DNA from: a virus
Length of the DNA stretch: 64,000 nucleotides
Strand: one strand, 5' to 3'
IMG/VR virus record: IMGVR_UViG_3300027777_000023
Span: 32,001 to 96,000 of that record
The notes under the pieces are model-generated. The model searched no databases. It was not told the origin of the DNA and worked only from the letters and a program-made list of their open reading frames with translations. A program made the position numbers and the translations under genes. This document shows, piece after piece, positions 1-57,772 of this stretch (position 1 is its first letter; each line of letters starts with the position of its first letter).

Positions 1-312
1 CATTGACTTCGCCCCTTCGGTTGAAGAAGCTGATGCAGTCCTCGCCACCTTCGGGTACGCGGACGCTGATGCGATCCTCGCTGCCTAAGGAGTGCCTGGA
101 ATTGATTGTCTGCTATTTTCCAGGGTAACACGCAGCAGACTGGTTTGTGGGAGTATTGAATCCTACTCCACATAACGAGATAATGGATAATCGAGAAGTC
201 GTAGCCTGCTTGTTGGCGCCGTCTTCTCTAAATAAAAATAACATAGCTAAACGTGTAGAGGTTTATAGTGAAGGCGTTCAGGACAGGGGTTCAACTCCCC
301 TCGGGTCCACCA
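1..312 (+). ncRNA. ssrA: tmRNA, 5' end outside window
   Basis: 3' end GGAC-AGGGG-TTCAACT-CCCCT-CGGGTCC-A-CCA gives T-arm, acceptor strand with the U of the G3:U70 alanine determinant, and encoded CCA (310-312); upstream reading frame ends in LAA-stop. Confidence 0.93.
2..88 (+). other. tmRNA tag reading frame (partial): IDFAPSVEEADAVLATFGYADADAILAA*
   Basis: Open frame ending in the typical degron LAA then TAA, about 220 nt upstream of the tmRNA 3' end; resume codon outside window. Confidence 0.85.
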
Positions 313-317
313 CTTTT

Positions 318-585
318 AGGGGTGAAGCTTAATGGTATAAGCAGGCGACTCATAAAAATTGTGCATTATAACGAGAAATCATATAATGAATGATGTCAAA
401 TTCGGTGAAACCTAAAACAGAAATGTTAAGGCAACGCCGAGCGAAGCCTCGAAAGAGGAACGTGTAGAGACTTGACGGCATCCTCCTAAGGCGCAAGCTA
501 AGGAGAAGACAAAGTCCAGGGAGTGAGGAAACTCACACAAACCTAAATCGCTCGACAGTGGGTTCGATCCCCATCACCCCTACCA
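318..585 (+). tRNA. trnI: tRNA-Ile2 (anticodon CAU, lysidine type), exons 318-353 and 546-585
   Basis: Acceptor AGGGGTG/CACCCCT-A-CCA; D-arm GCTT/AAGC; anticodon stem GGCGA/TCGCT with loop CTCAT|AA; T-arm GTGGG-TTCGATC-CCCAT; anticodon arm GCAGGCGACTCATAATCGCT matches the bacterial Ile2 type. Confidence 0.9.
354..545 (+). mobile_element. Group I intron (Azoarcus-like, IC3) at tRNA position 36/37, 192 nt, no ORF
   Basis: P1 CAT(351-353)/GTG(361-363) with U.G; P7 G-A-GACTT(467-473)/AAGTCC(512-517); P9 GTGAG-GAAA-CTCAC; P10 ATT(358-360)/AAT(546-548); core motifs GTCAAATTCGG and GCAACGCCGAGC. Confidence 0.92.
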
Positions 586-1097
586 TTTATCTCGCCTAAC
601 GTGAGCAGATTGTGGTCAAATTCCCAATGACAGTTAGGACACAGGAATAGTATGTTTTCCCTGGCGTTAACTGTCTTTAGTTTGGTTTTTTTGGGAAAAG
701 AAGAAATAGGGCGGATATGACAAATCTCGATATGTTTGTTGTAGCCGCACCGCTGGCACAAAGGATTGGTCTTCTCTGCTTTATATAGGCTATTGGCATG
801 ACCTCGAATTTGATCATAGTGGTTCGCTCCTTTTCTTGCCGCGATTTCTTCTATGGTTGCTTCATTTCTATCTTTACCTTGTAGATGCTTTTTGTGTGCG
901 ATACAGGCATCGCAAAAGACATTAAGTCTACCGTATTTGTTCGGGTACAAGATAATTTCACAACCTTTACAAATCTTAGACCGAGTTGACCGTCTTTTTG
1001 GTTTAATTGTATTGTTGTGTCTAGCGGCACAGCGCCTACTACAAAACTTTTTTTGATCTCTGGTCTTTAACTTTGTGGTGCAGGTGATGCAATTCAT
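543..1097 (-). CDS. Free-standing HNH endonuclease with N-terminal Zn-finger-like CxxC..FCSxxC repeats
   Basis: CQRCG..HI..N..LCPNCH motifs; last codons overlap tRNA exon 2 in antisense. Confidence 0.8.
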   Translation of the reverse strand: MNCITCTTKLKTRDQKKFCSRRCAARHNNTIKPKRRSTRSKICKGCEIILYPNKYGRLNVFCDACIAHKKHLQGKDRNEATIEEIAARKGANHYDQIRGHANSLYKAEKTNPLCQRCGYNKHIEICHIRPISSFPKKTKLKTVNARENILFLCPNCHWEFDHNLLTLGEINGRGDGDRTHCRAI

Positions 1098-1126
1098 ATA
1101 ATTATTTATTATTTGGGTTAGGGTTG

Positions 1127-1168
1127 CCCCAACTACTTCACTATATTTGTGAGGTAGTTGGGGTTTTT
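1127..1168 (+). terminator. Intrinsic terminator
   Basis: CCCCAACTACTTCAC/GTGAGGTAGTTGGGG stem followed by TTTTT. Confidence 0.75.
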
Positions 1169-9509: not shown

Positions 9510-10361
9510 ATGGCTAAAAGAATATCCAATATAGAAGAACTTAAGAAAGACTATTTAGCAGGCAATTCATTAACCAAGCTGCAAGATAAGTACGGGTTTG
9601 AAAGGCATGCATTGGCAAGAGCGCTCAAGGCATCCGGAATAACTATTGTACAGAATAATCAAAAGCATGACTATAACAGCGAGCTTTTTAATGAGATCCG
9701 AAGCGAAGCAAGTGCTTACTGGTTAGGTTTTCTATATGCCGACGGCTCCCTAGACTTAAAAAAACCTCAAGTAGAGTTATCTTTAAAGTCTACAGACATT
9801 GCACATATGGTAAAACTGAGGGATTTAGTATGTACGACTTTACCTATAGCATATAAAGAAATTAAAACTAAAGGTAAAGTATATCAAGCTGTACGGATTA
9901 GCTTATCGAATCAGTGCATATACTCACAGCTAATTGCCTTAGGTTGTCCTCCTAGAAAATCATTGACGCTATCGTTCCCAACAAAAGAACAAGTGCCACA
10001 CAACCTACACAACCATTTTATCCGTGGTTATTTTGACGGTGATGGTAGTGTAGGTGTATATACCTATAATGATAAAGAACCTCAAATTCGTTGTAGTTTT
10101 GAAGGAACTGAAGCTATGCTAAGAGGTATACAGGCAGTGTTTTGCGACAACATTTCAAATTACACTGCGGTGGGTGTTTCGCAAAGGGCGAAGCAAAAAT
10201 CTTGTGTTCTTCAGAAGGGGGGAAACGCTAGTGTTGAAGGATTATATGACTATATGTATAAAGACGCGACCGTCTTTCTTGAGAGAAAAAAGGATATTTT
10301 TGATGGCTTTTATAAAAAAACAATTTGCCGCGCAATAGAGCAATCTGTTGCTGATAATTGA
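9510..10361 (+). CDS. Intron-encoded LAGLIDADG homing endonuclease with N-terminal HTH-like segment
   Basis: Two motifs AYWLGFLYADGS and FIRGYFDGDGS; its TGA stop lies in the P3 strand of the ribozyme. Confidence 0.9.
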   Translation: MAKRISNIEELKKDYLAGNSLTKLQDKYGFERHALARALKASGITIVQNNQKHDYNSELFNEIRSEASAYWLGFLYADGSLDLKKPQVELSLKSTDIAHMVKLRDLVCTTLPIAYKEIKTKGKVYQAVRISLSNQCIYSQLIALGCPPRKSLTLSFPTKEQVPHNLHNHFIRGYFDGDGSVGVYTYNDKEPQIRCSFEGTEAMLRGIQAVFCDNISNYTAVGVSQRAKQKSCVLQKGGNASVEGLYDYMYKDATVFLERKKDIFDGFYKKTICRAIEQSVADN

Positions 10362-50490: not shown

Positions 50491-51516
50491 ATGTCTAAAT
50501 TAGCAACAATAGCAAAAATACTAGCGCTAGAAGCTATTCCTGACGCAGACCGTATTGAGCGAGCTACAGTGCTTGGTTGGTCGGTGGTAGTAAGAAAAGG
50601 CTTACACGAGGTAGGTGATCTGGTTGTGATGATATTCCCAGATACACTAGTACCTAAACAGTACCTAGACCCGACTTACGAGGGAGATGAAAAGGTTCGG
50701 CTTAAGACTATAAAGATGAAAGGTCAGTACAGTGCAGGCCTAGTTATTCCACTAGCCGATTGGGCTACGCCCCCCGGTAAATATAGTGAGGGTGATGATG
50801 TGGCTGAACTTCTCGGTGTAGAGAAATATGAAACACCTATCCCTGCAAGTATCGGTGGAGATGCGTTGGGGGTATTTCCAACAGCGATCGTAAGCAAGAC
50901 AGATGAGGATAATTACAGGACTAACCCTCAAGCAATCGAAGAACTAGGTGAAGAGCGATTTAAAGATACTTCGTTTGTAGCTACGCTAAAGTGTGACGGC
51001 AGTAGCGGAACATTCTTTCTTAAAGAAGGGTTGTTTCGAGTATGCAGTCGTAACCTAGAGCTACGTGAAACTGAAGGTAATGCTTTCTGGCAGGTGGCAC
51101 GAAAGTACAGACTAGAGGAAGTTATGCGTGAGCAAGACGTAGAATATGCTATTCAAGGCGAGGTGTGTGGTCCTGGAATACAAGGAAATCCTATGAAGCT
51201 TAAATCGCTTTCATTATTTGTATTCCTGATCAAAGATCTAAGCACAGACAAATGGCTACCTTGGGAAGACACTGTAGAGTTCTGCAATGCGCACAACATT
51301 CCGCTTGTGGAAGAACTATTCAAGATAGCTCACTATCACGATCTGCCCAGATGGGATGAGCTACAAGCAATCGCAAACAATACTAAATACGATAACGGTA
51401 AAACAAACGCTGAAGGCTTGGTGTTGCGCACAACCACACCAATGCACTCAAAAGTACTAGGTAAAGCCTGGTGGAGTCTGAAGATCATGAACGAACCCTA
51501 CGACGTAAAGAAATAA
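50491..51516 (+). CDS. RNA ligase, DRB0094-type with N-terminal OB-like domain
   Basis: D.IE.A.V.GW..VV, KCDGSS, QGE..GPGIQGN, EGLV.R, LK..N. Confidence 0.85.
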   Translation: MSKLATIAKILALEAIPDADRIERATVLGWSVVVRKGLHEVGDLVVMIFPDTLVPKQYLDPTYEGDEKVRLKTIKMKGQYSAGLVIPLADWATPPGKYSEGDDVAELLGVEKYETPIPASIGGDALGVFPTAIVSKTDEDNYRTNPQAIEELGEERFKDTSFVATLKCDGSSGTFFLKEGLFRVCSRNLELRETEGNAFWQVARKYRLEEVMREQDVEYAIQGEVCGPGIQGNPMKLKSLSLFVFLIKDLSTDKWLPWEDTVEFCNAHNIPLVEELFKIAHYHDLPRWDELQAIANNTKYDNGKTNAEGLVLRTTTPMHSKVLGKAWWSLKIMNEPYDVKK

Positions 51517-53400: not shown

Positions 53401-54528
53401 ATGAACCTACCAAAACTATACAAGCGTACCGTAACAAGAGCCATCCAAGAATGGCAGATCTTTTTCGCAGATGGCGAATACTATACTGTCAGTGGTCAAA
53501 CAGACGGTAAGAAAGTAACTAGCACCCCTACAGTCTGCAAAGGCAAGAACCTAGGCAAAAAGAACGAGACCACTAATGAGGAGCAGGCTGAGCTAGAGGC
53601 AAAGGCTAAGTGGCAGAAGAAAAAGGATGAAGGGTATATCGAAAACATCGAGGCCGTTGATGGTGCGATGGATTTTCGATTTAATCCCATGCTGGCAAAA
53701 GACTATGCAAACTACGAGGACAAGATCGCTTTTCCTGTATATAGTCAGCCTAAATTGGATGGTCTCAGATGCGTGATTACTAGGGAAGGCACGTTCAGCC
53801 GGCAGTGGAAGCCTTTCGTCACATTAGATTATGTGCAAGATGTCTTGCGAGCTGTGTTTGATCAAAACCCAGGATTGCTTGCATTTGACGGTGAGATGTA
53901 TTCTCACGAGCTCAAAGATCGCTTTGAGGAAATTGTGAGTATTGTAAAGCAGCCAAAGGCTACAGCTGAAGATCTGGAAAAGTGTAAAAACAATATTCAG
54001 TATCATGTGTACGACGCTGTGTTTGAGGAAGCCCATAGCTTTAGTGCGCGTATAAACGCAGTAACTATGCTACTGCGTGAATTGGACAGCCCATATATCA
54101 AGCTTGTGGAAACAGACCGCATCCGAAATCAAGACGATCTTGATGCGATGTATCAGCAGTATATGCAAGAAGGCTATGAGGGTCAAATGATTCGCACACC
54201 TCTGTCATTGTATCAGCATAATCGAACCAAAGATCTATTAAAGCGTAAGGATTTCCACGACGCTGAGTACGAGATCATAGGCTATAAAGAAGGCAAAGGC
54301 AGTCGTGAAGGCTGTATTATATTGCGGCTCGGTATGGCTGACGGCACTGAATTTGATTCTGTGCCTGTTGGCGGTGTAGAATATCTGCAAAGATTGTGGC
54401 TTCGTCGAGAAGACCTGCTGGGCTTGCGGGCAACTGTCAAGTACCAGAACCTCAGCAATGACGGCATTCCAAGGTTCAACAACACAGTAAAGATCAGAAA
54501 CCATAAACTAGAGGAAATGGTATTCTAA
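53401..54528 (+). CDS. lig: ATP-dependent DNA ligase
   Basis: PKLDGLRC, FDGE.Y, YHVYD, EG.MIR, LLK.K, OB domain PRF. Confidence 0.93.
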   Translation: MNLPKLYKRTVTRAIQEWQIFFADGEYYTVSGQTDGKKVTSTPTVCKGKNLGKKNETTNEEQAELEAKAKWQKKKDEGYIENIEAVDGAMDFRFNPMLAKDYANYEDKIAFPVYSQPKLDGLRCVITREGTFSRQWKPFVTLDYVQDVLRAVFDQNPGLLAFDGEMYSHELKDRFEEIVSIVKQPKATAEDLEKCKNNIQYHVYDAVFEEAHSFSARINAVTMLLRELDSPYIKLVETDRIRNQDDLDAMYQQYMQEGYEGQMIRTPLSLYQHNRTKDLLKRKDFHDAEYEIIGYKEGKGSREGCIILRLGMADGTEFDSVPVGGVEYLQRLWLRREDLLGLRATVKYQNLSNDGIPRFNNTVKIRNHKLEEMVF

Positions 54529-55445: not shown

Positions 55446-56339
55446 ATGAAAAAGAATCAAATTAAAGAGCCCAATACAAATAATAAAATTATTGTTTGTC
55501 GCGGGCTCCCGTGACCGGCTAGCGGAAAATCGACATGGGCCAAAGACTTTATTGACCGTAATCCTGGGTGGTTGCGAGTCAACAAAGACGATCTCAGGGC
55601 AATGCTTCACAACAGTAAGTGGAGCAAAGATAATGAAAAGCAGGTATTGCTTGTGCGTGACAGCATGATTATCGGAGCATTGAGTAGAGGGTATGGTGTG
55701 ATTGTTGATGATACGAATTTCGCTAGTCAGCACATCACAAATATTCAACTTATTGCTGAGGATTATAAAGCAGACTTTGAGGTAAAAGACTTTGATGTCT
55801 CGCTTGAAGAATGCTTGAAGCGTAATAGTGAGCGAATGCCTAGGGTCCCGGATCGAGTGATCCTAGATATGTATAATAAATATGTGTTGCCTAACAAACC
55901 TAAAGTCAAAAATAATAAAGATCTACCACCGTGTATTGTATGTGATCTTGACGGCACGCTCGCAATTCATGTAGATCGTGGTCCGTTCGAGTTTGAGAAA
56001 TGCTACTCTGACGAGGTAAATGAGAGTGTGCTGGGCTGTATAGACGCAATGACTAAACGAGGATTCAAGCTAATCTTCGTTAGTGGACGTCCAGATAGCT
56101 GTCGAGACGAGACAGTGCGTTGGTTGAATGATAAGTGTTGGCTCGGTTCTGGATACATATTGTACATGCGAGCTACAGGCGACAACAGAAAAGATAGCAT
56201 AGTGAAGGAGGAGATTTATAAAAATGATATTCTTCCTGAATACTATGTAGAGTTTGTGCTAGACGACAGGCAACAGGTCGTCGATGCATTGCGGGAAATG
56301 GGATTACAAGTATGGCAAGTTGCACGCGGAGATTTTTAA
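55446..56339 (+). CDS. pseT: PseT-like 5' polynucleotide kinase/3' phosphatase with an in-frame TGA (55512-55514) in the P-loop; recoded or pseudogene
   Basis: AAGGAG SD then ATG 55446; RGLP*PASGKSTW, NKDDLR, DDTN; HAD domain DLDGT, SGR, DDR intact. Confidence 0.8.
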
Positions 56340-56342
56340 AAC

Positions 56343-56627
56343 ATGAATAAATTTACAACAGAACAAATTGAAAAAATTAAAGAAGTGCATACGGAAATAG
56401 CTGACTTGCAAAAAACGCAAGATAAGCTATTTGATCGACTGATAAAAGATTTAGAGTTCGAAGACTATGCTGAAGCATGGCAAAACGACGCTGATTGCTA
56501 TATATTCAAGGACGATAACCCTGCAAACTGGTTGTTTGACACAATATTCAATACTGCCTTTGACGAGCTATGTGACTCGATTAAAAGCATTGAAGAGCAT
56601 TGGGGTATGTACAATCAACGAGATTAG
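56343..56627 (+). CDS. Hypothetical protein
   Basis: Abutting. Confidence 0.6.
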   Translation: MNKFTTEQIEKIKEVHTEIADLQKTQDKLFDRLIKDLEFEDYAEAWQNDADCYIFKDDNPANWLFDTIFNTAFDELCDSIKSIEEHWGMYNQRD

Positions 56628-56635
56628 ATATGACT

Positions 56636-56671
56636 GGTTGCTGCGGTTCCTTCAATAGGGGCCGCAGCACC
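56636..56671 (+). promoter_or_regulatory. GC-rich hairpin 12 nt upstream of the Rnl1 start, no U-tract
   Basis: TGCTGCGGTTCC/GGGGCCGCAGCA. Confidence 0.45.
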
Positions 56672-56683
56672 AACAACAACCCT

Positions 56684-57772
56684 ATGAAACAATTCATGTA
56701 CTTACTCGACAATGGTTTCGTCGTGAGGGAAAGAGAGATAGGTGGTGAGATGTGCTATCTTGTATTTCCATCTTCTTTGGGTGTTAAATGGACCAAGAAT
56801 AATTTGATATACAGAAGCAGTATCTGGACCGCAGATATGAAACCTGTGTCGCTGGGGTTCAAGAAATTCTTTAATTTTGGGGAAGCGCCTGAACTTGTGA
56901 GAGACCCTCGAAGCAGCGATATCTTGCTTGGTGGATCTGTGGTAGAAAAGATCGACGGTTCTTGTCTCATTGTGAGTAGGTTTAAGGGGCAGTTAATCTG
57001 TAGGACCAGAGGCACCTTTGATGCTAGGGAAAAACCTACAGGAAATGAGTTAGACTATCTGGAAAAGAAATATCCAAAAGCTTTCCAAAACGATGACCTG
57101 GCGAGTGAGCAATGCAGTTACGTATACGAGTGGACGACTAGTGCAAATCGTATTGTTGTGGATTATGGAGAGGAGCCAAACATACGATTAATTGCTAGAA
57201 TCTCCCATGAAGACTATCGCTACTCTTATCAGACCGTCCTGGATGGGATAGCTCAGGATATTGCTGTAAGTAGGCCGTACAGGTTGCTCGCTCCTGGTGT
57301 GAGTATGATAAAGACTCAACTAGAAAAGATGCGTCTCAGTGAAGGATACTGTGTGTACTTCAACGATGATCAGGACATCAAGAAAATGAAATGCGACTGG
57401 TATCTGAAAGCTCACAGATTCAGGAGCAACTGTTCATTACCATACATACTAGATTTATTTCTAGAGCAAGATTGTCCAGATATAACCTCATTTGTCGAAG
57501 CGCTTGAAAAAGAGTATGACTTTGAATGCGCTCCTGAAGTCAGGTCGTACGCATCGTCGGTATGTAGAGCCTATGCAGATGTGCAGGTACTCATACTCAG
57601 AGTCAAAGACTTCACAGGCACACTAGACGGCAAAAACAACAGAAAAGCTGCAGCAGAGGCTATATTAGCAGAATACAAGGACTCAGGATTGACAGGGGTA
57701 GCGTTTAATTGCTTGGACGGAAGACAAACAACAAAACATCAACTCAAACAATTGATACTTCAACAACTATGA
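56684..57772 (+). CDS. rnlA: T4 Rnl1-like RNA ligase
   Basis: GFKKFFN.GE, EKIDGS, YEW, EGY..Y, K.K..WY..AH. Confidence 0.8.
   Translation: MKQFMYLLDNGFVVREREIGGEMCYLVFPSSLGVKWTKNNLIYRSSIWTADMKPVSLGFKKFFNFGEAPELVRDPRSSDILLGGSVVEKIDGSCLIVSRFKGQLICRTRGTFDAREKPTGNELDYLEKKYPKAFQNDDLASEQCSYVYEWTTSANRIVVDYGEEPNIRLIARISHEDYRYSYQTVLDGIAQDIAVSRPYRLLAPGVSMIKTQLEKMRLSEGYCVYFNDDQDIKKMKCDWYLKAHRFRSNCSLPYILDLFLEQDCPDITSFVEALEKEYDFECAPEVRSYASSVCRAYADVQVLILRVKDFTGTLDGKNNRKAAAEAILAEYKDSGLTGVAFNCLDGRQTTKHQLKQLILQQL

What the first reader, a model, noticed from the sequence alone, without database searches (positions are those of the whole stretch)
354..548. tRNA-Ile2 group I intron ends in A instead of the conserved omega-G
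Seen: the intact tRNA needs exon 2 to start at A546 (AA-TCGCT), and P10 (ATT 358-360 with AAT 546-548) points to the same junction, so the last intron base is A545 (...CACACAAACC-TA|AAT). The guanosine-binding pair in P7 (G469-C516) is canonical. Established: the Azoarcus tRNA-Ile intron, which this one follows closely, ends ...CACACAAACC-GG (recalled, verify by alignment). Omega-G is nearly universal, and omega-A is known mainly from some coral mitochondrial ND5 introns. Inference: a natural omega-A ribozyme, a splicing-dead intron, or an intron whose second step is finished by protein, for example 3' hydrolysis followed by the phage Rnl1.
Basis: partly seen in the sequence, partly recalled or inferred. 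Interest (0 to 1): 0.78.

Follow-up and report, generated by a model that had tools for sequence, protein, structure and literature searches.

The report
Phage tRNA intron ending in A
A self-splicing-type (group I) intron in a phage tRNA gene ends in A where every relative has the G needed to rejoin the tRNA halves; it is most likely a crippled copy spread by the neighbouring homing-endonuclease gene, but working splicing is not excluded.

Summary
Window 318-585 is a tRNA(CAU) gene of a 190-kb phage. It is split after U36 by a 192-nt Azoarcus-type (IC3, 'Ile2.5') group I intron at 354-545. Every junction compatible with the cloverleaf puts A at omega.

- **Rarity.** In a 36-sequence alignment, omega is G in 34. 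It is A only here and in one other contig (L006).
- **Wider set.** Of 173 mapped tRNA introns, only these two truly lack a U(-1)/G(omega) placement.
- **Rest of the ribozyme.** It is intact: 93% of cells paired, and the G-binding pair G469-C516 is unchanged.

New context:
- tRNA, intron and an antisense free-standing HNH gene form a roughly 0.8-kb cassette inserted after the tmRNA.
- The two carriers are 98.8% identical over the cassette but 77-80% in the flanks.
- None of 14 related phage loci has the intron. One has an intronless tRNA(CAU) at the same site.

Best reading (about 0.5): a G-to-A change at omega slows or blocks exon ligation. It is tolerated because the tRNA is accessory, and it spreads with the HNH. 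A productively splicing omega-A ribozyme, as in a sea anemone ND5 intron, remains a serious rival (about 0.33). No read or RNA data could be obtained. Earlier unchecked notes of this scan report omega-A in other phage tRNA introns on other DNA.

The parts
1..312 (+). 3' part of a phage tmRNA (whole gene at genome 31899-32312). Its CCA end lies 5 nt before the tRNA.
   Evidence: Rfam RF00023, 69.7 bits; ARAGORN on the whole genome
313..1105 (.). Mobile cassette of tRNA(CAU) with intron plus a free-standing HNH gene. It is inserted between the tmRNA and its terminator.
   Evidence: Window 282-1105 is 98.8% identical to L006, while the flanks are 77-80%. The cassette is absent from 14 related phage loci.
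318..353 (+). tRNA(CAU) exon 1: acceptor 318-324, D arm, anticodon stem 344-348, anticodon CAT 351-353. It carries A8 where 34 of 36 relatives have U8.
354..545 (+). 192-nt group I intron, subgroup IC3, Azoarcus type, inserted after U36 ('Ile2.5' site). It has no ORF.
   Evidence: Rfam RF00028, 68.7 bits; alignment A1 and pair counts
361..363 (+). Internal guide sequence GUG. It pairs with CAU 351-353 (P1), giving U353.G361 at the 5' splice site.
   Evidence: All three P1 pairs are invariant in 36 of 36 sequences
469..473 (+). P7 5' strand. G469 is the G of the guanosine-binding G-C pair.
   Evidence: Pair col 189/248 is G-C in 36 of 36. The Azoarcus base triple uses G129-C176 (PMC13168695).
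512..516 (+). P7 3' strand. C516 pairs with G469.
518..520 (+). P9.0 5' strand (A518 G519 G520). It pairs with C542 C543 U544 directly before omega.
   Evidence: Pairs 519-543 and 520-542 covary in relatives: L071 and L125 have A-U at 519-543, L076 has A-U at 520-542, and L175 has C-G at 520-542
523..536 (+). P9 hairpin with a GAAA loop
   Evidence: 5 pairs, 100% paired, 4 with double changes
545..545 (+). Omega position: A instead of the conserved G
   Evidence: G in 34 of 36; A only in the window and L006
546..585 (+). tRNA exon 2: A37 A38, anticodon stem 548-552, T arm 558-574, acceptor 575-581, A582, CCA 583-585
543..1097 (-). Free-standing HNH endonuclease gene (184 aa). Its last 14 codons are antisense to exon 2. 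Its TAG stop is the complement of C543-T544-A545.
   Evidence: Pfam PF13391 HNH_2, E 3.3e-8; translation. A homologue in L106 is arranged the same way.
1126..1164 (+). 16-bp hairpin followed by a T run: probable terminator of the tmRNA-tRNA transcript, lying beyond the HNH start
   Evidence: L001 2327-2365 corresponds to window 1126-1164

Best explanation
This is an Azoarcus-type IC3 group I intron in an accessory phage tRNA(CAU) gene. The tRNA is probably the AUA-reading Ile2 type. The intron has a G-to-A change at its last base.

Inferred mechanism:
- Step 1 should work normally, because the U353.G361 pair, the guide sequence and the G469-C516 guanosine pocket are all intact. In this step free guanosine attacks after U353.
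- Step 2 needs the last intron base to sit in that same pocket. A545 cannot make the base triple that G makes with a G-C pair.
- Exon ligation is therefore strongly slowed or blocked, and little or no mature tRNA results.

Why the allele persists (inferred):
- The tRNA is optional in this phage clade.
- The gene lies in a roughly 0.8-kb cassette with a free-standing HNH homing endonuclease. That enzyme copies the whole block between co-infecting phages.

Shown here: the anatomy, the uniqueness of omega-A, the cassette and its recent sharing between two phages. Inferred only: the splicing defect and the drive by the HNH.
For: 1. Omega is G in 34 of 36 Ile2-type relatives and in all other correctly mapped tRNA introns. 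A survey of 5,292 bacterial tRNA introns found no genuine non-G omega (preprint 10.1101/2020.01.27.920355). Omega-G is therefore under strong selection wherever the tRNA matters.
2. The guanosine-binding pair is still G-C. No matched change to A-U has occurred. From my own knowledge of Been and Perrotta 1991 (reference seen), that matched change is what restored ligation with a terminal A in Tetrahymena.
3. Only two carriers exist. They share a cassette that is 98.8% identical inside genomes that are 77-80% identical. Omega-A therefore arose once and recently, and it has no long record of conservation.
4. None of 14 related phage loci has the intron. Most have the tmRNA abutting the neighbouring gene. 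One (L418) has an intronless tRNA(CAU) at the same site. The tRNA is therefore optional, and a target allele for homing exists.
5. The HNH differs from its L006 copy by 7 nt and only 2 aa, which suggests an active gene. A homologue sits in the same antisense position beside another intron-split phage tRNA.
6. The tRNA body also carries A8 where 34 of 36 relatives have U8.
7. Targeted scans found no further omega-A copies.
Against: - Apart from omega, the ribozyme shows no decay. All helices pair, and P3, P8 and the D stem carry compensated changes relative to the nearest relatives.
- The single exon difference between the two carriers turns G.U into G-C.
- AUA is 32% of Ile codons in the phage, and its other tRNAs also read A-ending codons. 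A working tRNA would therefore be useful.
- A natural omega-A group I intron in a sea anemone ND5 gene is reported together with ligated mRNA (PMC8146996). Omega-A is thus not always fatal in vivo.
- In a pre-tRNA the acceptor and anticodon stems hold the cut 5' half in place, so even a slow second step could finish (inference).
- The two carriers have diverged too little for any test of selection.
Confidence: 0.5

Rival explanations
1. This is a natural omega-A ribozyme that still splices productively. The 3' splice site would be positioned by the 3-bp P9.0 (including A518-U544 next to omega), by P10 and by the tRNA stems. Exon ligation would then proceed without a G in the pocket, giving useful amounts of tRNA. 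A side effect would be loss of 3'-site hydrolysis and intron circularisation.
For: - The core is intact and carries compensated changes.
- U544 extends P9.0 to the base before omega.
- There is demand for an AUA reader.
- There is precedent for omega-A with ligated ND5 mRNA, and its authors suggest that omega-A blocks hydrolysis and circularisation (PMC8146996).
- Unchecked notes of this scan report omega-A in other phage tRNA introns.
Against: - The G-binding pair is unchanged.
- Only one recent lineage has omega-A, among about 170 relatives here and 5,292 bacterial tRNA introns.
- U at position -1 also occurs in 4 of the 34 omega-G relatives, so it is not a specific compensation.
- The tRNA is optional in the clade.
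Confidence: 0.33
2. The G-to-A change was favoured by the HNH gene because it creates the HNH stop codon. TAG is the complement of CTA 543-545. This trims a 15-residue run-on tail, at the cost of tRNA splicing.
For: The stop codon includes omega. With G at 545 the frame would run 15 codons further, to a TAG at 498-500 (my reading; the same point was noted by first-stage readers).
Against: The L106 homologue tolerates a tail that runs through exon 2 and 20 codons into the intron, with omega-G intact. No evidence shows that the tail matters.
Confidence: 0.05
3. The ribozyme performs only step 1, and proteins finish the job. A nuclease would cut at A545|A546, and the phage Pnkp and Rnl1 would heal and seal the anticodon loop.
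For: Pnkp (55572-56339) and Rnl1 (56600-57772) are adjacent in the window, and an Rnl2-like ligase lies at 50491-51516.
Against: - This gene pair is common in large phages as a tRNA repair system (my own knowledge), so it is not specific to this intron.
- No nuclease for the 3' site is known.
- Ribozyme hydrolysis at the 3' site needs omega-G as well.
Confidence: 0.04
4. A545 is a sequencing or assembly error.
For: Reads could not be inspected.
Against: The same TA occurs in a separate contig (IMGVR_UViG_3300009181_006390, also held as Ga0114969_10006849). That contig's flanks are only 77-80% identical to the window's genome.
Confidence: 0.02

Closest known systems
[quoted passage not shown]
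   Same: Same insertion site after U36 of a CAU tRNA. Same 3-bp P1 (CAU/GUG). Same core sequence through P3-P9, same GAAA loops, and the same 3' tail CACACAAACC.
   Different: The Azoarcus intron ends GG; this one ends UA. This one is in a phage, in a cassette with a free-standing HNH gene.
ND5-717 group I intron of the sea anemone Stichodactyla haddoni (PMC8146996)
   Same: A natural intron whose last base is A instead of G.
   Different: It is a mitochondrial mRNA intron with genes inserted in P8, and it is vertically inherited. Ligated mRNA is reported there. Here no RNA data exist, and the allele is confined to one recent lineage.
Tetrahymena intron with a terminal G-to-A change and an altered guanosine site (Been and Perrotta 1991, from my own knowledge; reference seen)
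   Same: A terminal A in a group I intron.
   Different: Ligation there needed the binding pair changed from G-C to A-U. Here the pair is still G-C.
Collaborative (trans) homing: a free-standing endonuclease beside an ORF-less intron (reviewed in PMC3984707)
   Same: An ORF-less intron with a free-standing HNH gene next to it. An intronless allele exists in a related phage. A high-identity tract covers both intron and HNH.
   Different: The host gene is a tRNA, and the HNH overlaps it antisense. Cleavage specificity is untested.

Membership tests
Group I intron, IC3, tRNA 'Ile2.5Ug' class | Conserved core helices P3-P9 with the P7 pseudoknot | tested here: met
   Rfam 68.7 bits. 93% of cells paired, and 44 pairs with changes on both sides.
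Group I intron, IC3, tRNA 'Ile2.5Ug' class | U.G wobble at the 5' splice site in P1, after U36 of a CAU anticodon | tested here: met
   U353.G361. P1 is invariant in 36 of 36 sequences.
Group I intron, IC3, tRNA 'Ile2.5Ug' class | G-C guanosine-binding pair in P7 | tested here: met
   G469-C516; the pair is G-C in 36 of 36.
Group I intron, IC3, tRNA 'Ile2.5Ug' class | Terminal G (omega-G) before the 3' splice site | tested here: not met
   A545. G in 34 of 36 relatives and in all other correctly mapped tRNA introns.
Group I intron, IC3, tRNA 'Ile2.5Ug' class | Self-splicing with guanosine | not testable with these tools
Adenosine-adapted group I intron (binding site switched together with omega) | A-U in place of the G-C binding pair in P7 | tested here: not met
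   The pair is G469-C516.
Collaborative homing unit (ORF-less intron plus free-standing homing endonuclease) | Free-standing endonuclease gene adjacent to an ORF-less intron | tested here: met
   HNH_2 ORF at 543-1097 on the minus strand.
Collaborative homing unit (ORF-less intron plus free-standing homing endonuclease) | Presence/absence polymorphism, with a high-identity tract spanning intron and endonuclease | tested here: met
   98.8% against 77-80% identity. Absent from 14 related loci. An intronless allele is present in L418.
Collaborative homing unit (ORF-less intron plus free-standing homing endonuclease) | The endonuclease cuts the intronless allele at or near the insertion site | not testable with these tools
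   Needs a cleavage assay.

The most novel reading that the evidence does not exclude
A phage tRNA intron with an ordinary guanosine pocket splices productively with a terminal A. It would be the first omega-A group I ribozyme in bacteria or phages. The tRNA scaffold, P9.0 and P10 would substitute for omega-G docking. The excised intron would be unable to circularise, hydrolyse its 3' site or reverse-splice. If the other omega-A phage tRNA introns noted by this scan are also real, this could be a recurrent phage solution.
Probability: 0.3. Interest if true: 0.75.

Novelty: new variant of a known kind. Interest (0 to 1): 0.5.

Why it matters
Omega-G is treated as a near-universal requirement for the second step of group I splicing. 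The Azoarcus intron is the main structural model for that step.

A natural Azoarcus-type intron that differs from the model essentially at omega alone is a ready-made test. It can show how much of 3' splice-site recognition comes from omega-G and how much from P9.0, P10 and the tRNA scaffold.

- If it splices, the requirement is softer in pre-tRNA than textbook mutants suggest.
- If it does not, the locus shows a homing endonuclease carrying a broken host gene between phages. That would illustrate the cost a selfish element can impose.

Tried and rejected
- **ARAGORN with introns allowed.** It does not call the split gene, so I mapped exons with my own script. That script mis-maps a few loci (L091, L109, L158).
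- **Selection test between the two carriers.** The 8 differences are unevenly spread: 6 lie in 972-1105 and only 2 in 282-971. This looks like a conversion tract, so comparing intron against HNH silent sites has no power.
- **More omega-A copies.** The metagenome scan returned only omega-G relatives, the L006 contig again and one chance match. A viral scan for omega-A with TCC stems gave 82 chance hits and no intron. The 15-base scan gave chance hits plus L006 and L007.
- **GenBank phages.** There is no close relative.
- **Adenosine-specific ribozyme.** Rejected, because the binding pair is G-C.
- **Cryptic 3' site at a nearby G.** G550 would delete A37 to G41 (AAUCG), including part of the anticodon stem. 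G528 lies inside P9. Rejected by inspection.
- **RtcB and TilS.** Neither is found in the phage.
- **Literature search for G414A.** It gave nothing relevant.

Full report
**What is there.** The window is part of a 189.6-kb IMG/VR virus record estimated to be 97% complete. Rfam finds the 3' part of a tmRNA at 1-312 and a group I intron at 329-538 (68.7 bits). ARAGORN sees no tRNA here. Joining 318-353 to 546-585 gives a 76-nt tRNA(cat) with an encoded CCA that ARAGORN accepts. The gene is therefore exon 1 (318-353, ending CUCAU), a 192-nt intron (354-545) and exon 2 (546-585, starting AAUCGCU). P1 is CAU 351-353 with GUG 361-363, P7 is 469-473 with 512-516, P9.0 is 518-520 with 542-544, and P10 is AUU 358-360 with AAU 546-548. 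The intron ends U544-A545. Moving the junction along the A run keeps A at omega.

**Is it unusual?** I scanned viral and genome collections with a core motif. My script found and mapped a tRNA around the intron in 173 of the roughly 240 loci. Of these, 168 allow a U(-1)/G(omega) placement. Three of the five exceptions are mis-mappings whose 3' ends still show a G. The other two are the window and L006. An alignment of 36 distinct Ile2-type pre-tRNAs has G at omega in 34, and A only in the window and L006. The base before omega varies freely (A 15, G 13, T 6, C 2). A survey of 5,292 bacterial tRNA introns reported no genuine non-G omega (preprint 10.1101/2020.01.27.920355). A metagenome scan and a further viral scan found no additional omega-A copies.

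**Is the rest of the ribozyme sound?** I mapped the window's structure onto the alignment.
- 93% of cells pair, against 33-39% when partners are slid by 1-3 columns.
- 44 of 74 pairs show changes on both sides.
- The P7 pair G469-C516 is G-C in all 36 sequences. In Azoarcus this pair binds guanosine in a base triple (PMC13168695).
- P9.0 is supported by covariation. L071 and L125 have A-U at 519-543, L076 has A-U at 520-542, and L175 has C-G at 520-542.
- The window's deviations in P3 (A393-U481), P8 and the D stem are compensated.

The intron therefore looks fully functional apart from omega. There is no matched change of the guanosine pocket.

**Context found here.**
- L006, the only other carrier, comes from a phage whose flanks are 77-80% identical to the window's genome. 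Window 282-1105 is 98.8% identical.
- Within that tract there are no differences in the intron and one in exon 2 (T574C, turning G.U into G-C). There are seven in the ORF at 543-1097 on the minus strand, changing 2 of 184 residues.
- That ORF is an HNH endonuclease (Pfam HNH_2). Its last 14 codons are antisense to exon 2, and its TAG stop is the complement of 543-545.
- A 37%-identical homologue in L106 lies in the same antisense position beside an intron-split tRNA-Arg(UCU). Its tail runs through exon 2 into the intron, with omega-G intact.
- I fetched 14 related phage loci through the neighbouring 432-aa protein (70-78% identity). None has a group I intron.
- Eleven of the 14 show the tmRNA. 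In six of these it lies 60-92 nt from the neighbouring gene, and in the other five 190-460 nt.
- One locus (L418) has an intronless tRNA(CAT) at the same site. It is 58/76 identical to the window's spliced tRNA and has a near-identical acceptor stem.

The tRNA, intron and HNH are therefore an accessory cassette inserted between the tmRNA and its terminator. The cassette was exchanged recently between two diverged phages.

**Reading.**
- Step 1 should be normal.
- Step 2 needs the terminal base in the guanosine pocket. From established work on Tetrahymena (Been and Perrotta 1991, my own knowledge; reference seen), a terminal A is ligated only when the pocket pair is changed to A-U. That has not happened here.
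- The absence of non-G omega from thousands of bacterial tRNA introns argues that the change is costly wherever the tRNA matters.
- Here the tRNA is optional in the clade, and it sits in a block that a homing endonuclease can copy.
- An impaired allele that is tolerated and carried along is therefore the simplest account (about 0.5).

**Against this reading.**
- The ribozyme shows no other decay.
- The phage uses AUA for 32% of Ile codons, and its other tRNAs, Thr(UGU) and Arg(UCU), also read A-ending codons.
- The tRNA stems would hold the cut halves together during a slow second step.
- A sea anemone ND5 intron with omega-A is reported with ligated mRNA (PMC8146996).

A productive omega-A ribozyme therefore remains a serious rival (about 0.33). 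The two carriers are too similar, and their differences too unevenly placed, for any test of selection.

**Other readings.** The phage does encode Pnkp next to Rnl1, plus an Rnl2-like ligase. Nothing ties these genes to this intron, and no activity is known that would cut the 3' site. The stop-codon idea is weakened by the L106 homologue, which tolerates a longer run-on tail. An assembly error is unlikely because two contigs agree, but reads could not be checked.

**Earlier notes of this scan.** First-stage readers had already noted the HNH overlap and the stop at omega on this window. My own reading agrees, including the 15-codon extension. Notes on other genomes report omega-A in other phage tRNA introns. 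I did not test them, and they are leads only.

**Verdict.** It belongs to one young lineage inside a mobile cassette. It is a new variant of a known kind. Its interest depends on a simple splicing assay.

Noticed in passing
window 543-1097 (-); L106:1548-2132 (-): HNH genes of one family (37% identity) lie antisense at the 3' end of two different intron-split phage tRNA genes: CAU here and Arg-UCU in L106. In both, the C-terminal tail is encoded by the complement of exon 2. This suggests a standing partnership between this HNH family and tRNA introns.
   Followed up: partly
L418:5345-5421 (-): A related phage has an uninterrupted tRNA(CAT) at the same place, between the tmRNA and the neighbouring gene. 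It is 58/76 identical to the window's spliced tRNA, and there is no HNH. It is a natural intronless allele.
   Followed up: partly
L411, L412, L417, L418, L423: spacer between the tmRNA and the neighbouring gene: Several related phages share a conserved, unassigned element in this spacer. It has the motifs CTGGTGGAGG, a hairpin with a GAAA-type loop, CCAGGCGTC and CCTGGAC. Rfam gave no hit at gathering score.
   Followed up: no
L411:4833-4931 (-): A 99-nt Rfam tRNA hit (46 bits) next to the tmRNA. ARAGORN can model it only with an odd 5-nt intron. It may be a tRNA with a short insertion.
   Followed up: partly
window 1-312 (genome 31899-32312): The phage tmRNA has a 31-residue tag ending ILAA. 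Related phages have similar long tags.
   Followed up: no
window 50491-51516, 53401-54528, 55572-56339, 56600-57772: A cluster of nucleic-acid end-joining genes: an Rnl2-like RNA ligase with a PHA02142 OB domain, an ATP-dependent DNA ligase, Pnkp (kinase plus HAD phosphatase) and an Rnl1-like ligase.
   Followed up: partly
window 325 (tRNA position 8) and 553-557 (variable loop): The tRNA has A8 where 34 of 36 relatives have U8. It also has A15, A46 and A48 where relatives have G15, G46 and C48. The usual tertiary pairs are therefore altered.
   Followed up: partly
L424:8517-8584 (-); L417:2103-2139 (-); L422:2868-2905 (-): Rfam hits in related phages: a Pistol ribozyme (40.9 bits) and the abiF RNA motif (47.2 and 42.4 bits).
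   Followed up: no
window 9510-10361 (+): An ORF with weak LAGLIDADG-like Pfam matches (E 3.9e-7), possibly another homing endonuclease.
   Followed up: no
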